Assembly (NCBI GenBank): GCA_049968235.1
Contig: JBMFRC010000042.1
Span: forward strand, 1 to 5,549
Direction: 5' to 3'
Source of the DNA: Candidatus Hydrogenedens sp.
GTDB taxonomy: Bacteria; Hydrogenedentota; Hydrogenedentia; Hydrogenedentales; Hydrogenedentaceae
Length of the DNA: 5,549 nt
The translations under genes were made by a program, and so were the position numbers. Shown in pieces: positions 1 to 5,549 of this stretch (positions are counted from its first letter, which is position 1; every line of letters begins with the position of its first letter). Under the pieces are notes generated by a model. That model was not told the DNA's origin and did not search any database. It saw only the letters and a list, made by a program, of their open reading frames with translations.

Positions 1-396
<396 letters not shown>

Positions 397-500
397 ATGT
401 TATCATAAGCCAGATATATTCCCTACGAGTTCATGTCGCTTATTCTTGCACTCCTTGCATTCGCTGTCGAAAGTTTTTATAAAGTTTAATATATAAGTTT

Positions 501-617
<117 letters not shown>

Positions 618-632
618 TTTTTATTTAAACTG

Positions 633-688
633 TGATGAGATGAAAAATCCATACCTTTTACCAGATTATCATCTCATTTTGTTTTTTT
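633..688 (+). terminator. Putative rrn operon terminator (hairpin + T-run)
   Basis: Inverted repeat 'gatgagatga' (634-643) / 'tcatctcatt' (669-678): 9 Watson-Crick pairs plus a G-U. It is immediately followed by 'ttgttttttt' (679-688). The loop is unusually long (~25 nt), so confidence is moderate. Confidence 0.4.
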
Positions 689-838
689 AGTGCAGGTCTA
701 AATTATTATAAATATAAAATAAGGCTACGATTTGTTTTATACTTATATTATATGAGATGTAAATAATTGTAAATTCTACAATTTATTTTCTCCTTCCACT
801 ACTTATAATTGCTTTATACTCCTCCAAAATTTTGTTTC

Positions 839-867
839 TTGATGCATAATTCATATAGAATTATAAA
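839..867 (+). promoter_or_regulatory. Possible sigma70-type promoter for the isomerase gene: TTGATG, 17-nt spacer, TATAAA
   Basis: 'ttgatg' at 839-844, a 17-nt spacer, then 'tataaa' at 862-867, ~25 nt upstream of the ATG at 891. The SD-like 'aaggga' lies ~9 nt before the ATG. The region is very AT-rich, so chance matches are likely. Confidence 0.25.
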
Positions 868-890
868 AACATAACATAAGGGAAATATCT

Positions 891-2396
891 ATGAATACAT
901 CAAATCAAGAATCAAAAAAGTTTTCGTCCTGTTTCTCAGGTTGTTCACGCAGGCAATTCATTCTGGCTTCGGCAGGTATGGTGGCAGTGGCTAATCTGCC
1001 GATTTATGGGAAATCTATTGTTGAGCAGGGACCCTTGGCTGAGTTACAGATTAAGAGTAAGGTTAGGGTAGGAAAAATGTATGTCGGTATTCCCAGCCCC
1101 GGTTGGCCTATGCATCTGGTTGACCTGAAAGCGGAAGTAAACCGATATGAACAGGAAATATCGAAACTCAAAGAACAACTTGCTGATATTGAATTTGTGG
1201 AAGGTGGGCTGGTTACAAATCAAGATGAACTTGCAAAAGCAAAAGAAAAGTTTGGGGATGTGACGGGGATATTGGTTCTGCATCTGACTTTAGGCACAGG
1301 CGGGCTGATTTCAGGGTTGTTTGACATGAACAAGCCTGTGATGATTTTTACCATGCCGTATTGTGGGCATGAATGGCATATTGTTCCATCGTGGCAGAGG
1401 GAAGGAAAAATTGTGGATATAGTTCCAAGCAGTCAATATGCAGATATTGCTGAAGCGGTGAAACCGTTCCGTGCTATTCAAAGACTAAAAGAGACACGAA
1501 TACTCCATGTAAACTATGGTGAAGCAGACCCGCAATATTGTGCTTCTATTAAGGAGAAATTTGGAACTGAAATCATTACAGTAACACTTCCGGAACTTGA
1601 AAAGGCTTACGAGGAAGCATCCGAAGAAGAGGTGCTTGCTGATACAGAAAGATGGATTAAAGAAGCGGAGAAAATTGTTGAGCCCGGTAATGAAGATATA
1701 AAAAAAGGGGCGAGAATGTATATTGCTATGAAGAATCTTATGAAGAATTACAAGGCACAAGCCATTACAATGAATTGTTTAGGTATGAAATTAATGGAAA
1801 GGAATATGGGCTATCCGTGTTTAGGCTTTGTTCGATTAAATAATTCCTTGCTTGCAGGTGTGTGTGAGGCAGACCTGAAATCTACAATGACACAACTACT
1901 ATTTACCTATCTCGTGGGACGCACAGGTTTTGTTACTGACCCGATGTTTGACCTTTCAAATAATACAATCATACATGCCCATTGTGTCGCAGCGACACAG
2001 ATGAAAGGTCCGAATACCGAGCCTTCCCCTTACATAGTGAGAACTCATTTAGAGGACAATAGAGGCGTTTCACTGCAAGTGAAGATGCCTGTCGGCGAAA
2101 AAGTAACTATGGCACGACTAATAGGTAGCGATATATTGCTGTATAGCACCGGTGATGCCATCGATAGTCCACTTGAAGAGCGTGGCTGTAGAAGTAAATT
2201 AACGGTAAAAGTGGATAATATAGATAATTTCCTATATAACTGGTCATGTGGACTACATCGTGTAATCTTTTATGGTGACCACACAAGGGATATAGAACGC
2301 TATTGCAGGTTAACAAGAATTAAAATCCTCCGCGAAGGGATTGATAATCTCCATCATGTCGAAGGACTTGAATGGAACCCCAATGTCCATGCATAG
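891..2396 (+). CDS. L-arabinose/L-fucose isomerase family (AraA/FucI superfamily) sugar isomerase with N-terminal twin-arginine (Tat) signal peptide
   Basis: 501-aa ORF with ATG at 891 and TAG at 2394-2396. The N-terminus 'SCFSGCSRRQFILASAGMVAVANLPIYG' is a canonical Tat motif (S-R-R-x-F-[IL]) followed by a hydrophobic h-region. The core 'GVCEADLKSTMTQLLFTYLVGRTGFVTDPMFD' resembles the AraA metal-site motif 'GEGDWKTAALLRIM...TSFMEDYTY', and 'TIIHAHCVAATQM' resembles the AraA His-containing strand. Antisense ORFs inside it are AT-rich junk. Confidence 0.8.
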   Translation: MNTSNQESKKFSSCFSGCSRRQFILASAGMVAVANLPIYGKSIVEQGPLAELQIKSKVRVGKMYVGIPSPGWPMHLVDLKAEVNRYEQEISKLKEQLADIEFVEGGLVTNQDELAKAKEKFGDVTGILVLHLTLGTGGLISGLFDMNKPVMIFTMPYCGHEWHIVPSWQREGKIVDIVPSSQYADIAEAVKPFRAIQRLKETRILHVNYGEADPQYCASIKEKFGTEIITVTLPELEKAYEEASEEEVLADTERWIKEAEKIVEPGNEDIKKGARMYIAMKNLMKNYKAQAITMNCLGMKLMERNMGYPCLGFVRLNNSLLAGVCEADLKSTMTQLLFTYLVGRTGFVTDPMFDLSNNTIIHAHCVAATQMKGPNTEPSPYIVRTHLEDNRGVSLQVKMPVGEKVTMARLIGSDILLYSTGDAIDSPLEERGCRSKLTVKVDNIDNFLYNWSCGLHRVIFYGDHTRDIERYCRLTRIKILREGIDNLHHVEGLEWNPNVHA

Positions 2397-2624
2397 ATTA
2401 TTGAAAAGAAACAAAGGATGAAATTATATTTTCCTGTTGTATTTTATTGCAAAAAAAAATTGAACAACAAAACCCTGCATAACAAAGTTAAATAATTTAA
2501 CAGCAATTCTTTATTTGCACATTCTTTAAATTTATGAAGTTATATACTGCCAAAATATATCACAATTTAATTGTTAACATAAATTTATTTTGAGAGTTCT
2601 TTTTGTTTTGTCGTCATTTTTGAA

Positions 2625-3398
2625 TCAATCGTTTTTTTTAATAGTCTCTGCCAATTCTATTTCATCAAATAAGGTTTTCCAGCCTATTACAGGTACGCCA
2701 TCTTTTATTTCTGGCGGAGAATGGTGCTTAAGTATTACGAGTATAGGGATGGACATTCTTCCTAATATTTCAGATTGAGCCTTAATTTTATTGATTTTAT
2801 TGGTTATAGTAAAACTACGTTTAGATACTTTGCAAGCTATTACTAAATAGCTTTGTTCAAAAACACAGGCTATATCTATTTCACTTTTAAATGCATGGCC
2901 TTGATATTCTTCATTTATGTTTCTCTGATTCTCTTCTGACCATTTTGTTTTTATCCCTAATCGAATTTGCTTACAACCTATTTTCTCAAATGCAAATGCG
3001 GTTAATTCTTCAAAAAAGTGTCCATCACTCCTCTTAGCCTCTAATATGTGGTCAATATCATTATCTATTTCTTCTGCAGTTAATATTTTATTCTTCAATA
3101 CTTTATCTTTTAAGTTTTTGAATTTGGTAATGAAATTTTGGTAGAGACTTTTTTTGTCATTATTCAATGTTTTCCCTATATTTTTGATATCATCTTTCAT
3201 TTGTAATACTATTACTAAAGGAGGTTCCTTTAATGGTATTTTTTCAGAACCATCTAATAAATCAATGGTATTAGTACTATTATTAATAGAATATATCTTT
3301 CCATGTTGTTTTATTCCCCAAAAACTTAGTACTCCAGCATGAGATTTTGGTCCGGGTGTTATATTTATGATTGCTTCTCCATTCCCAAACATCTTCAT
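2625..3398 (-). CDS. Hypothetical protein; C-terminal half resembles an Mrr-type PD-(D/E)xK restriction-endonuclease fold (possible nuclease effector)
   Basis: 257-aa ORF, 77 nt downstream of the CARF gene on the same strand. Segment 'FEELTAFAFEKIGCKQIRLG...QGHAFKSEIDIACVFEQSYLVIACKVSKRSFTITNK...ILGRMSIPILVIL' matches the Mrr_cat layout: a helix with FE..l....L...GY, a Gly + hhhD strand (EIDIA), then hh.xCK (IACK). Motif III has Ala where Q/E is usual. The N-terminal ~110 aa (K-rich linker) is of unknown function. Weak RBS. Confidence 0.6.
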   Translation of the reverse strand: MKMFGNGEAIINITPGPKSHAGVLSFWGIKQHGKIYSINNSTNTIDLLDGSEKIPLKEPPLVIVLQMKDDIKNIGKTLNNDKKSLYQNFITKFKNLKDKVLKNKILTAEEIDNDIDHILEAKRSDGHFFEELTAFAFEKIGCKQIRLGIKTKWSEENQRNINEEYQGHAFKSEIDIACVFEQSYLVIACKVSKRSFTITNKINKIKAQSEILGRMSIPILVILKHHSPPEIKDGVPVIGWKTLFDEIELAETIKKND

Positions 3399-3475
3399 AT
3401 TATATAAATTAAATCCTGTAATATCTGTTGGTAATGATTGTAAGCCTCTTACTTGATTCGGTAAATTAATTTTAC

Positions 3476-3976
3476 CTATTTAATTTTTTCGATAACTTTA
3501 TTCACCCGTGAATCATCATAAGTATAAATTATACAAAGATTTGAATAGTTGTGAGTATACATCACCTTCAAGGTGTTTATTAATTCAGGACTCATTACAA
3601 CATATAAAGTAGAACCTTCTTTAGGTTCTTTTATTATTTCTGGTGAATTTATTTTTTTTGATAAATCAACAGAAAATGTAGATTTATTATTTGTTTTCTC
3701 TAAATAATTTCCAAATTCATTGAGATTACTAAATATTTTAACATCTCCTATTGCCTCTGATTGAAATCTTTCCTTAGTCCTAGTATCTTTAGTCTTAGGA
3801 TATTTTTTAATGATAATAGTTTCATAACTATGAAGTTCTTTTAACTGTTTACGATCCTTTCCACAAAATGCGATAATTTTACGAACTTTGTCTAATTCGT
3901 ATGAATCTATACTTATTATAAGTTTTAAGAAATTATTTTTAGAGATAATAAAATCGAATACAATATTTTCAAGCAT
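3476..3976 (-). CDS. C-terminal fragment (166 aa from first ATG) of the frameshifted CARF-domain protein; C-terminal domain of unknown function
   Basis: ORF from ATG 3976 to the stop at 3476. The same frame stays open upstream to 4192 with protein-like sequence and no canonical start, so the true gene is longer. Contains 'DRKQLKELH' (R-x6-H), a weak HEPN-like hint only. Confidence 0.45.
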   Translation of the reverse strand: MLENIVFDFIISKNNFLKLIISIDSYELDKVRKIIAFCGKDRKQLKELHSYETIIIKKYPKTKDTRTKERFQSEAIGDVKIFSNLNEFGNYLEKTNNKSTFSVDLSKKINSPEIIKEPKEGSTLYVVMSPELINTLKVMYTHNYSNLCIIYTYDDSRVNKVIEKIK

Positions 3977-4295
3977 TATCGCCGTAGATGATTGTTTTCC
4001 TGCTTCCCGTGGTATTTTTAATGATTTAAAATTCCCTTCTCTTTGTTTACATTTATATTCAACTCCCTGGATAGCTAAAATATCTAAAGGTTCTAACTCA
4101 ATACAAGGATTTAATTCTTTATATTCACCATTATTTAAGTTAAGAGACCATATAGATTCCCTTTCTGAATATATGAAGTTTAAATGGGGGGATTAAATGT
4201 TTTTAAGTATTGAAAGACAAAACTGGCAACCTGATGGTTCATCCCTCCAGCCAGATTGAAATATATCTCCTCATCTTTATCAACAGGGATGTCTT

Positions 4296-4508
4296 TTATA
4301 TTAAAAATTGGAGCGACAATTTGTTTTGAATTTCTAATTTTGGATTCTGTTTTAACAACTGAGAAGAGATTTTATCTGTTTGTTCAGCAGTTATTTCTGT
4401 ATGTAAAAGTAAAAATTTGCATCGCGATTTTTCTAAATTTAATACAGATAGAGCAGAGTTTAGTGTTCCCATAACCTGTGTACCTACAAAAGAAATAAAT
4501 TGAGCCAT
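4296..4508 (-). CDS. N-terminal fragment (70 aa) of the frameshifted CARF-domain protein, as an ORF caller would report it
   Basis: ATG at 4508 preceded by 'aggagattaaaa'. Encodes CARF beta1-alpha1-beta2 ('FISFVGTQ...CKFLLLHTEITAEQ'). Terminates at TAA 4296-4298 only because of the upstream frameshift. Confidence 0.5.
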   Translation of the reverse strand: MAQFISFVGTQVMGTLNSALSVLNLEKSRCKFLLLHTEITAEQTDKISSQLLKQNPKLEIQNKLSLQFLI

Positions 4509-4514
4509 TTTTAA

Positions 4515-4520
4515 TCTCCT
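4515..4520 (-). promoter_or_regulatory. Shine-Dalgarno sequence (AGGAGA) of the CARF gene
   Basis: + strand 'tctcct' is 'aggaga' on the - strand, 7 nt upstream of the ATG at 4508. Confidence 0.6.
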
Positions 4521-4563
4521 ATATTCAATTTAATTAACTTTTAATTTATTTTATCTCTATTAT

Positions 4564-4605
4564 GTTATTAAATCAAAAAAATAGCCCTCTGTGCGGGGAA
4601 AATCC
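4564..4605 (-). terminator. Rho-independent terminator of the PASTA-domain gene
   Basis: Perfect 11-bp inverted repeat 'atagccctctg' (4571-4581) / 'cagagggctat' (4595-4605) with a 13-nt loop. On the - strand the stem is followed by a T7 run (A-run 4564-4570 on +). It lies 54 nt downstream of the stop at 4659. Confidence 0.65.
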
Positions 4606-4658
4606 AGAGGGCTATGTATGTTGTGACAGAAAGTTTTCTCCCTGATGGGACTGAATGT

Positions 4659-5549
4659 TTAATTGTGCGTGTGTTTGCGTTTCCGTGTTTGAACGAGGAG
4701 TAGTCCGGAAAGGATAGTTAGCATTACCCAATCGCCTGTGTTGGAGTTATCCGATGAACTATGGGTTCCACAAGAAACGATAAATCTGCGTTTCTTACCC
4801 TTGCTAACAATTAAATCCACAGGGGTATCCTTTGCAACTCGCGCACCTGCTTCTGGCGCCTGACTAATTACACTTCCTTTTGGAACAGTGTCACTATATT
4901 CTTGTTTAATCGTTCCTACAGTAAGTCCGGAAGCAATTATTTTTGTTCTTGCATCCTGTTCTGTCATCCCAACCACATTGGGTACTGAGATAGGGCATGG
5001 ACCTGTAGAAACTACGAGATTTACTGATGTTCTTTTATTAACTGTTTGTGCTGGTAATGGACTCTGACTAATAACATTTCCTTCAGGAACGGTATCACTA
5101 CATTGTCTTGTTATGCTTCCCACAACCAGTCCTATGGATGTTATTTGTTCGATTGCTGATGTCTCGGAACTACCAATTAGATATGGAACTGTAACCTTTT
5201 CGACTTCACCTTCCACGATACCTTCCGGAGTACCCTCTGGTGTCCCTTCGGGAGTTCCTTCCACGACGCCTTCCGGAGTACCGTCGGGCGTACCTTCCGG
5301 GGTCCCTTCCACGACGCCTTCCGGAGTTCCCTCTGGCGTTCCTTCGGGCGTTCCTTCAACCACACCTTCCGGTGTACCTTCTGGCGTGCCTTCTGGAGTA
5401 CCTTCGACTACACCTTCGGGGGTGCCTTCCGGCGTCCCTTCTGGCGTTCCTTCACCTTCTACAACTCCTTCTCCTTCTGGAGTGCCTTCGCCTTCAGGAC
5501 ATGGTCCTGTGGATACCCAAAGATTCACTAATGTTCCTACCTCTACAGT
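4659..5549 (-). CDS. PASTA-domain repeat protein (N-terminus outside the window; PknB-like Ser/Thr kinase or PBP-associated sensor not decidable), with a PEGT-rich repetitive linker and a C-terminal hydrophobic/basic tail
   Basis: The reading frame is open to the window edge. The listed GTG at 5526-5528 is not the real start: upstream codons continue '...TVEVGTL'. Two full PASTA units: 'VPYLIGSSETSAIEQITSIGLVVGSITRQCSDTVPEGNVISQSPLPAQTVNKRTSVNLVVSTGPCP' and 'VPNVVGMTEQDARTKIIASGLTVGTIKQEYSDTVPKGSVISQAPEAGARVAKDTPVDLIVSKG'. These match the PASTA consensus (vP.vvG.t..eA...l...Gl.v......s..v..G.Vi.Q.P.aG..v..g..V.L.vS.G). A third unit ends '...NLWVSTGPCP' at the window edge. The C-terminus is '...SSSDNSNTGDWVMLTILSGLLLVQTRKRKHTHN'. 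Confidence 0.85.
   Translation of the reverse strand, partial: TVEVGTLVNLWVSTGPCPEGEGTPEGEGVVEGEGTPEGTPEGTPEGVVEGTPEGTPEGTPEGVVEGTPEGTPEGTPEGVVEGTPEGTPDGTPEGVVEGTPEGTPEGTPEGIVEGEVEKVTVPYLIGSSETSAIEQITSIGLVVGSITRQCSDTVPEGNVISQSPLPAQTVNKRTSVNLVVSTGPCPISVPNVVGMTEQDARTKIIASGLTVGTIKQEYSDTVPKGSVISQAPEAGARVAKDTPVDLIVSKGKKRRFIVSCGTHSSSDNSNTGDWVMLTILSGLLLVQTRKRKHTHN
5190..5507 (-). repeat. Imperfect 48-nt tandem repeat (~5-6 copies) inside the PASTA gene, encoding (TPEG)3-VVEG linker units
   Basis: Protein 'EGTPEGTPEGTPEGVVEG' is reiterated. On the + strand the recurring unit is 'ccttccggagtaccctctggtgtcccttcgggagttccttccacgacg' with synonymous third-position variation between copies. The RK-rich ORF 5177..5365 is an alternative-frame artefact of this repeat. 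Confidence 0.8.

What the first reader, a model, noticed from the sequence alone, without database searches (positions are those of the whole stretch)
4180..4375. CARF gene split by two single-base deletions, one at a G6/C6 homopolymer
Three - strand frames each carry protein-like, stop-free sequence in this 28-30% GC region, where stops are expected roughly every 12 codons. They join into one continuous CARF protein if one C is added to the C6 tract (+ strand 'gggggg' 4186-4191) and one A is added to an A3/A4 run near 4325-4335. Both lesions are 1-nt losses in homopolymers. That could be a genuine pseudogene, slipped-strand phase variation of a defence sensor, or homopolymer under-calling by the sequencer. 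The neighbouring 1.5-kb isomerase, the 774-nt downstream gene and the PASTA gene are intact, which argues somewhat against pervasive sequencing error.
Basis: seen in the sequence. Interest (0 to 1): 0.7.

Follow-up and report, generated by a model that had tools for sequence, protein, structure and literature searches.

The report
Decayed Can1-like CRISPR-signal nuclease pseudogene
The two frameshifts are real, but they are two of four single-base homopolymer lesions in one roughly 640-residue Can1-like nuclease gene of a Candidatus Hydrogenedens genome, so this is an ordinary recently dead defence gene and not a phase-variable switch or a sequencing error.

Summary
One base is missing at the G6 tract (4186-4191). 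One is missing at the run 4325-4328, which is A4 on the - strand where intact orthologues have A5.

They are part of a larger picture. The whole - strand from 4508 to 2585 is one gene with four indels. The third is a 1-nt loss at 3477-3481. The fourth is a 1-nt gain in the T8 run 2632-2639. The "intact 774-nt downstream gene" is the C-terminal piece of this same gene.

Four single-base corrections restore a 641-aa ORF that is 62% identical, end to end, to an intact 638-aa orthologue at the syntenic site in a related lineage.

A second MAG contig is 100% identical across the gene. A third, SNP-distinct MAG shares the fourth lesion. A further lineage carries an independent 13-nt deletion, and four relatives lack the gene at this site.

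Verdict: a recently fixed pseudogene of a stand-alone Can1-like effector. Phase variation is not supported. Sequencing error is unlikely but cannot be excluded without reads.

The parts
2585..4508 (-). Whole Can1-like pseudogene. It runs from the ATG at 4508-4506 to the restored stop at 2587-2585. Four single-base corrections restore a 641-aa ORF.
   Evidence: reconstruction with no internal stop. (end-to-end alignment to P0001 638 aa at 62%, P0002 634 aa at 51%, P0003 652 aa at 43%).
4296..4508 (-). Fragment 1. This is the only piece with the native start and encodes 70 aa (MAQFISFVGTQ...), the N-terminal half of CARF domain 1. It ends at an out-of-frame stop at 4296-4298.
4325..4328 (-). Lesion 1, a 1-nt deletion. 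The - strand has A4 where orthologues L001 and L011 have A5. It falls at about residue 61, in a beta-strand of CARF1.
   Evidence: Nucleotide alignment. Protein junction IQKQ.
4183..4371 (-). Fragment 2, an open stretch of 63 codons in a second frame. It carries the CARF1 motif FNLAGGMNHQV.
4186..4191 (-). Lesion 2, a 1-nt deletion in a C tract (C6 on the - strand, G6 on the + strand; inferred ancestor C7 = N-P-P-H). It falls at about residue 109. The shift must lie within TCCCCCCATT (4183-4192).
   Evidence: The window is 1 nt shorter than L011 and L013 here.
3479..4192 (-). Fragment 3, an open stretch of 238 codons in a third frame. It holds the end of CARF1, the nuclease-like domain and the first half of CARF2. 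The database ORF 3476-3976 (166 aa) is its tail.
3477..3481 (-). Lesion 3, a net 1-nt deletion. The - strand reads ATTAAATA-GG where the orthologue has ATTAAAAAAGG. It creates the TAG stop at 3478-3476. It falls at about residue 345, at the end of a CARF2 helix.
   Evidence: homologues read KIK[KN]GKI.
2625..3479 (-). Fragment 4, an open stretch of 284 codons back in the first frame. It holds the second half of CARF2 (NITPGPKSH) and the PD-(D/E)xK nuclease domain. The database ORF is 2625-3398 (257 aa).
   Evidence: PADLOC CARF_PDDEXK 6.6e-8 at residues 486-598.
2632..2639 (-). Lesion 4, a 1-nt insertion in an A run (A8 on the - strand, T8 on the + strand). With A7 the tail reads TIKKTIDSKMTTKQKELSK*, matching the homologue tails TIDSKMTTKQ. 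As it stands the protein ends ...KKND*.
   Evidence: The third assembly L009 shares it (no gaps).
2585..2631 (-). Out-of-frame remnant of the conserved C-terminal tail (IDSKMTTKQKELSK, then the stop).
4516..4520 (-). AGGAG ribosome-binding site, with a 7-nt spacer before the ATG.
   Evidence: Read from the sequence.
4575..4615 (-). Intrinsic terminator of the upstream PASTA gene: an 11-bp hairpin at 4581-4615 followed by U7. The Can1-like gene is therefore its own transcription unit.
   Evidence: dG -19 kcal/mol, z -4.55.

Best explanation
The - strand region 4508-2585 is a recently inactivated and fixed pseudogene. It derives from a stand-alone Can1-like effector, a single polypeptide with the domain order CARF1, nuclease-like domain, CARF2, PD-(D/E)xK nuclease.

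By analogy with Can1 and Can2/Card1, intact relatives would bind a cyclic oligoadenylate made by a type III CRISPR Cas10 cyclase between the two CARF domains. Binding would switch on a metal-dependent DNA nuclease.

In this Candidatus Hydrogenedens lineage the gene has picked up four slipped-strand indels in mononucleotide runs: A5->A4, C7->C6, a loss in an A run, and A7->A8. Only a 70-residue N-terminal peptide can be made from the native start, and both CARF domains are cut mid-fold. The gene is therefore non-functional.

Shown here: the lesions, the intact orthologues, the fold, and identical lesions in other assemblies. Inferred: the ligand and nuclease activity of the ancestral protein, and that the lesions are mutations and not read errors.
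For: 1. Four single-base edits restore a 641-aa ORF with no internal stop. It is 62.3% identical to intact P0001 over residues 1-636.
2. The nucleotide alignment to intact orthologues places each lesion in a mononucleotide run.
3. Synteny. In every related locus the gene sits directly downstream of the orthologous PEGT-repeat/PASTA gene.
5. A distant family member (P0012) lies inside a type III CRISPR locus with Cas6-RT-Cas1, RtcR, Cas2 and RAMP genes.
6. Reproducibility. Contig JBMFPN010000267.1 of a second MAG has 0 gaps and 0 mismatches across the gene. A third MAG, with 9 SNPs over the shared 2967 nt, shares the A8 lesion.
7. Decay elsewhere in the clade. L010 has an independent 13-nt deletion that splits the gene into 161 + 464 aa. 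Four close relatives have the PASTA gene but no Can1-like gene or detectable remnant.
8. Mild signs of relaxed constraint. The window lineage has 5 unique changes at family-conserved columns (P18S, F199L, A318V, S560A, E575K) against 2 in P0001. The strain difference in L009 is 5 nonsynonymous and 0 synonymous changes.
Against: - No reads were available, so the lesions cannot be proven to be biological.
- All four lesions are in homopolymers, which is the error signature of some sequencing platforms.
- The three MAGs carry the same accession prefix (JBMF) and may share a platform and pipeline. Systematic errors would then recur across them.
- The relative-rate excess of the window lineage is not significant (65 against 48, chi2 2.6). 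There is therefore little independent evidence of long neutral evolution.
- No nonsense mutation or large deletion accompanies the indels.
Confidence: 0.82

Rival explanations
1. Sequencing or assembly artefact. The gene is intact in the organism, and the four indels are homopolymer miscalls that the same platform or pipeline reproduced in each MAG.
For: - All four lesions are +/-1 changes in mononucleotide runs.
- The restored frame has no other defect.
- The assemblies sharing the lesions have the same accession prefix.
- Intact neighbours are weak counter-evidence, because the gene holds 60 of the 97 counted runs of 4 or more bases.
Against: - The indel states are identical in a second assembly, and the fourth is shared by a third, SNP-distinct assembly.
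- Two of the lesions are in runs now only 3-4 bases long. Longer runs in the same gene (T8 3652-3659, T7 3149-3155, T6 and A6 runs) are in frame, which is the opposite of length-dependent miscalling.
- The contigs are 3.0-5.5 kb and break at the rRNA operon and at a 48-nt tandem repeat. That is typical of short-read assemblies, which rarely make such errors. This last step is inference.
Confidence: 0.1
2. Phase variation. Slipped-strand changes in the G6/C6 tract switch the CARF effector on and off in the population.
For: The tract is a G/C homopolymer inside a defence-type gene. It is specific to this lineage; orthologues read AAACAACCTCAT and similar sequences.
Against: - Three further frameshifts keep the gene off whatever the tract length.
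- The second assembly that covers the tract also has G6.
- Six bases is short for a contingency tract (general knowledge).
- No G7 allele exists in any collection searched.
Confidence: 0.03
3. The fragments are functional. Either they are decoded through programmed ribosomal frameshifting or transcriptional slippage, or they work as separate subunits.
For: Three lesions are -1 and one is +1. Each could in principle be bypassed by slippage. The 257-aa fragment contains the whole nuclease domain.
Against: - Four independent recoding events would be needed.
- The runs at lesions 1 and 3 are A4 and A3, far shorter than known slippery tracts (general knowledge).
- Orthologues encode one uninterrupted ORF.
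- The breaks fall inside both CARF folds (secondary structure).
- No AGGAG-like ribosome-binding site precedes the internal ATG at 3398.
Confidence: 0.02

Closest known systems
Can1 (CRISPR ancillary nuclease 1) of Thermus thermophilus, PDB 6SCE (PMC6981274)
   Same: - Same four-domain order in one polypeptide of about 640 aa: CARF, nuclease-like domain, CARF, PD-(D/E)xK nuclease.
- The family motif [D/E]545-x-D547 and K562 correspond to Can1 E541-x-D543 and K562 (paper read).
- A distant family member sits in a type III CRISPR locus.
   Different: - Sequence identity is only 11-12%. A 73-sequence family profile does not detect Can1 in the PDB at E<=1, although it does detect Can2.
- The residue aligned with the Glu of Can2's (D/E)xK motif, which the Can1 paper numbers E560 in Can1, is Ser in 58 of 73 family members and Ala in the window.
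- The host is Candidatus Hydrogenedens, with related contigs from several metagenome samples, not Thermus. The 2020 paper stated that Can1 appeared limited to Thermus.
- In this clade the gene is an orphan, with no cas genes within about 8-10 kb.
- The window copy is a pseudogene.
Can2/Card1 (DUF1887, Pfam PF09002; PDB 7BDV, 8BAO, 6WXW, 1XMX)
   Same: The C-terminal half (CARF2 plus nuclease) is homologous at sequence level: 7BDV 7e-13, 8BAO 8.5e-9, 1XMX 3.6e-7. The motifs NITPGTK and GxWFE...D...CK align with Can2's NVTGGTK and GGWFE...D...ECK.
   Different: - Can2 and Card1 are homodimers of 350-440 aa with one CARF and one nuclease domain. This protein is a fused pseudo-dimer.
- Pfam Card1_endonuc reaches only 17 bits against a cutoff of 26.4 in one relative, and gives nothing for the window protein.
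Phase-variable defence genes with poly-G/C tracts (for example restriction-modification mod or hsdS genes; general knowledge)
   Same: A G/C homopolymer inside a defence-type ORF, with a length that puts the gene out of frame.
   Different: The tract is only 6 bases. Three additional fixed frameshifts are present. No alternative tract length is seen in any assembly.

Membership tests
Can1-type fused CARF nuclease | Single polypeptide with CARF, nuclease-like domain, CARF, PD-(D/E)xK nuclease. | tested here: met
Can1-type fused CARF nuclease | Sequence-detectable homology to Thermus Can1. | tested here: not met
   phmmer and profile searches of the PDB at E<=1 to 10 do not return 6SCE. Structural alignments show 11-12% identity.
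Can1-type fused CARF nuclease | Nuclease active site E541, D543, E560, K562 (PMC6981274). | tested here: inconclusive
   The family has [D/E]545 (73 of 73 acidic), D547 (73/73), K562 (73/73) and E502 (71/73). The ExK acid is Ser in 58 of 73 and Glu in 13 of 73. The window has Ala there and E575K.
Can1-type fused CARF nuclease | Activation by cA4 and metal-dependent DNA nicking. | not testable with these tools
   Needs biochemistry on an intact orthologue.
Can1-type fused CARF nuclease | Encoded in or next to a type III CRISPR-Cas locus. | tested here: inconclusive
   Distant member P0012 is flanked by Cas6-RT-Cas1, RtcR, Cas2 and RAMP genes. In the window's clade no cas gene lies within the available flanks. 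The rest of these genomes could not be inspected.
Can2/Card1 (DUF1887, PF09002) | Match to the Pfam Card1_endonuc model above the gathering score, and a one-CARF, one-nuclease architecture. | tested here: not met
   No Pfam hit for the window protein. The best relative reaches 17.2 bits against a cutoff of 26.4. The architecture is doubled. Homology of the C-terminal half to Can2 is real (7e-13).
CARF domain superfamily | Rossmann-like CARF fold with the glycine-rich ligand loop. | tested here: met
Phase-variable contingency locus | Tract length is the sole determinant of ON/OFF, with alternative lengths in the population. | tested here: not met
   Three other frameshifts are present. The second assembly also has G6. 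Reads were not available.
Pseudogene | Multiple disabling lesions relative to intact orthologues at the syntenic site, reproducible between assemblies. | tested here: met

The most novel reading that the evidence does not exclude
The intact relatives may represent a separate, so far uncurated lineage of monomeric double-CARF nucleases. The profile search found 339 clusters at 50% identity, and no Pfam or NCBIfam model covers them. They are closer in sequence to Can2 than to Thermus Can1, and most carry Ser in place of the catalytic Glu of the ExK motif.

In Candidatus Hydrogenedens this lineage is inherited as an orphan next to a giant PASTA surface-protein gene. It keeps about 28-31% GC against 36-49% GC flanks, and it is repeatedly lost. 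If the orphan copies respond to a signal other than a neighbouring type III system, or if the SxK site changes the chemistry, this would be a new variant of cyclic-oligoadenylate effector. The window would be one snapshot of its loss.
Probability: 0.2. Interest if true: 0.45.

Novelty: new member of a known kind. Interest (0 to 1): 0.25.

Why it matters
- For annotation: three deposited MAGs list the fragments as separate hypothetical proteins. They should be one pseudogene.
- For biology: this is a clean example of gene flux in a defence effector within one clade. The gene is intact in three lineages, broken in two different ways in two lineages, and absent at the site in four.
- For the family: Can1-like fused CARF nucleases are much more widespread than the genus Thermus, and no curated model covers them.
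- None of this opens a new question. The finding itself, frameshifts in a CARF gene, is an ordinary pseudogene.

Tried and rejected
- Pfam, NCBIfam and single-sequence PDB searches of the restored protein gave nothing useful. Only PADLOC gave weak CARF_PDDEXK and Csx1 hits.
- The first AlphaFold model, built from 4 sequences, was poor in the nuclease domain (pLDDT 30-45). It was replaced by a 73-sequence model.
- A scan of GTDB representative genomes with the Can1-like alignment found no relative. The JGI metagenome scan returned only three loci, all carrying homologues already found. No G7 or otherwise intact allele of the window lineage could be found.
- Remnants of the gene downstream of the PASTA orthologue in L021-L024 were sought with tblastn, hmmsearch on six-frame translations and nhmmer. 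None was found.
- Flanking direct or inverted repeats that would mark a mobile island were sought. None was convincing.
- The relative-rate test for accelerated evolution in the window lineage was not significant.
- A literature search for the assembly accessions, to learn the sequencing platform, gave no hits.
- Programmed frameshifting and functional split genes were considered and rejected. The reasons are four sites, short runs and breaks inside the folds.

Full report
**Layout of the window**

- Bases 1-396 are the 3' end of a bacterial 23S rRNA and 501-617 is a 5S rRNA.
- 891-2396 (+) is a 501-aa gene with only sub-threshold similarity to sugar isomerases.
- 4659-5549 (-) is the 3' end of a PASTA-domain gene (PASTA 1.6e-31) preceded by 48-nt tandem repeats.
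- Between them, 2585-4510 has about 29% GC against 42-48% in the neighbours.
- The window is an entire 5549-nt contig of an NCBI MAG named Candidatus Hydrogenedens sp..

**Checking the observation**

On the - strand, local composition predicts a stop every 11 codons. The region nevertheless contains open stretches of 77, 63, 238 and 284 codons in alternating frames.

The G6 tract at 4186-4191 lies in the only 10-nt window (TCCCCCCATT) where the second frame can pass into the third. One extra C gives NPPHLNFIYSERE.

The first junction is at 4325-4328. The - strand reads ATTC-AAAACAAA where the intact orthologues L001 and L011 read ATTCAAAAAC/G. This is an A5->A4 loss.

The frame of the 238-codon stretch ends at TAG 3478-3476, and the next open stretch starts in the first frame immediately beside it. 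The - strand reads ATTAAATA-GGTAAAATT where L001 has ATTAAAAAAGGGAAAATT. This is a third net 1-nt loss.

The "774-nt gene" (2625-3398) is simply the part of the last fragment that follows the first ATG.

That last fragment carries a fourth lesion. The - strand has A8 (+ strand T8, 2632-2639). With A7 the reading continues TIKKTIDSKMTTKQKELSK*, which matches the conserved homologue tails TIQKTIDSKMTTKQNG, TIESKKTTKQEK and FIDEKMTTKK. As it stands the protein ends KKND*.

With three insertions and one deletion of a single base, a 641-aa ORF (4508->2585) with no internal stop is restored.

**Relatives**

The restored protein finds only four clusters among 5.8 billion proteins: P0001 (638 aa, 62% identity, 100% coverage), P0002 (634 aa, 51%), P0003 (652 aa, 43%) and P0004 (464 aa). 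The alignment is contiguous across all junctions.

P0001 is encoded intact on several independent contigs, and P0002 on three.

In every locus the gene lies directly downstream of the orthologous PEGT-repeat/PASTA gene. These are therefore orthologous loci, not scattered homologues.

P0004 turned out to be a second broken copy. In L010 a 13-nt deletion splits the gene into ORFs of 161 and 464 aa.

A scan of GTDB representative genomes with the PASTA tail found four close relatives (72-74% identity, Hydrogenedens-type MAGs). They have the PASTA gene but no Can1-like gene or detectable remnant downstream.

Across the clade the gene is intact in three lineages, broken by different lesions in two, and absent at the site in four.

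**What the gene is**

Curated libraries barely see it. PADLOC gives CARF_PDDEXK 6.6e-8 and Csx1 4.7e-6. Pfam and NCBIfam give nothing.

A profile of the four homologues finds 339 cluster representatives at E<=1e-3, of which 123 are at <=1e-30, among 1.84 billion proteins. Most are 630-700 aa and match end to end.

At sequence level the family profile matches Can2 (7BDV, 7e-13) over CARF2 plus nuclease, but does not detect Can1.

Can1 is described as a monomer with two CARF and two nuclease-like domains that binds cA4 and nicks supercoiled DNA. [quoted passage not shown]

In this family the acidic-x-D pair (545/547), K562 and E502 are conserved. The ExK acid is Ser in 58 of 73 members and Glu in 13.

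One distant member (P0012) lies inside a type III CRISPR locus with Cas6-RT-Cas1, RtcR, Cas2 and RAMP genes. This supports a role in cyclic-oligoadenylate signalling for the family. In the Hydrogenedens clade no cas gene lies in the available flanks.

**Pseudogene, error or switch**

A contig of a second MAG (GCA_049969095.1) matches window 645-5286 with five SNPs. All five are outside the gene and there are no gaps.

A third MAG (GCA_049971155.1) overlaps window 1-2967 with nine SNPs and no gaps, so it shares the A8 lesion. Its five differences inside the gene are all nonsynonymous.

The contigs are 3.0-5.5 kb and break at the rRNA operon and in the tandem repeat, as short-read assemblies do (inference).

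Two lesions sit in runs now only A4 and A3 long, while T8, T7 and several 6-base runs within the same gene are in frame. This is the opposite of what length-dependent miscalling would give.

Phase variation at the G tract cannot restore function while three other lesions persist. The second assembly that covers the tract also shows G6, and orthologues have no tract there.

The window lineage shows a small, non-significant excess of substitutions (65 against 48). It has five unique changes at family-conserved columns against two in P0001, including S560A and E575K in the nuclease domain. There are no nonsense mutations or large deletions. The inactivation is therefore recent.

**Verdict**

This is a recently fixed pseudogene of a stand-alone Can1-like cyclic-oligoadenylate effector (confidence about 0.8). 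Sequencing artefact remains possible at about 0.1 until reads are inspected. Phase variation and recoding are unlikely.

The finding itself is ordinary. The mildly interesting by-product is a large, uncurated family with Can1 architecture outside Thermus and a mostly Ser-for-Glu active-site motif.

Noticed in passing
window 4659-5549 (-); L001 2144-7873; L002 2528-7873; L003 819-6608: The upstream gene encodes a giant surface-type protein, 1781-1929 aa in relatives. It has dozens of 16-aa PEGTPEGTPEGVVEGT repeats (48-nt DNA period, window 5208-5454), two PASTA domains, and a conserved C-terminus (KGKKRRFIVSCG followed by a hydrophobic segment). Its length differs between samples (1909, 1781, 1929 aa), which suggests repeat copy-number variation or assembly collapse. 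The repeat is where all related contigs break.
   Followed up: partly
window 2585-4508; L001 8001-9917; L011 760-2664; L013 1270-3228; L010 511-2420: The Can1-like gene keeps 28-31% GC in all five lineages, although their proteins have diverged to 43-62% identity. The flanks are 36-49% GC. The low GC has not been ameliorated over long vertical inheritance, and no flanking repeats mark an island.
   Followed up: partly
L010 about 944 (GCA_964387125.1, CAYLVQ010000295.1): An independent inactivation of the orthologue. A 13-nt deletion between ...LMPK and IQGVPYE splits it into ORFs of 161 and 464 aa.
   Followed up: yes
L018 4970-22022 (GCA_036845625.1); L019; L020: A distant family member (P0012, 673 aa) sits in a type III CRISPR locus next to a Cas6-RT-Cas1 fusion (905 aa), an RtcR-type CARF sigma-54 activator, Cas2 and RAMP genes.
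   Followed up: partly
Family alignment A3, P0001 residue 560 (window about 2832-2834): The acidic residue of the (D/E)xK nuclease motif is Ser in 58 of 73 family members and Glu in 13. The window has Ala, which none of the 73 has. Whether a Glu at family position 575 (74% conserved, Lys in the window) substitutes for it is speculation.
   Followed up: partly
window 2857-2949 against L009: The third MAG differs from the window by five substitutions within the last 110 nt of its contig. All five are nonsynonymous in the nuclease domain (K->N, E->D, I->L, S->N, E->G). This could be relaxed selection, or strain mixing at a contig end.
   Followed up: no
window 891-2396 (+): This 501-aa gene has a possible twin-arginine signal (SRRQFILASAG; TAT_signal is sub-threshold). 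It has only weak similarity to sulfoquinovose isomerase and L-arabinose isomerase (33 bits against a 700-bit cutoff). Calling it an 'isomerase' is not established.
   Followed up: partly
window 4575-4615 (-): A strong intrinsic terminator follows the PASTA gene: an 11-bp stem, a 13-nt loop and then U7 (dG -19 kcal/mol, z -4.55). The consensus scan missed it because of the long loop.
   Followed up: yes
window 2625-3398 and 3476-3976: The public annotation lists the fragments as separate hypothetical proteins (MGC8739789.1/MGC8846182.1 and MGC8739790.1/MGC8846183.1), not as one pseudogene.
   Followed up: yes
window 1-617: The contig starts inside the 23S rRNA (model positions 2534-2925) and carries a complete 5S rRNA at 501-617. 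The pseudogene therefore lies about 2 kb from the end of an rRNA operon.
   Followed up: yes
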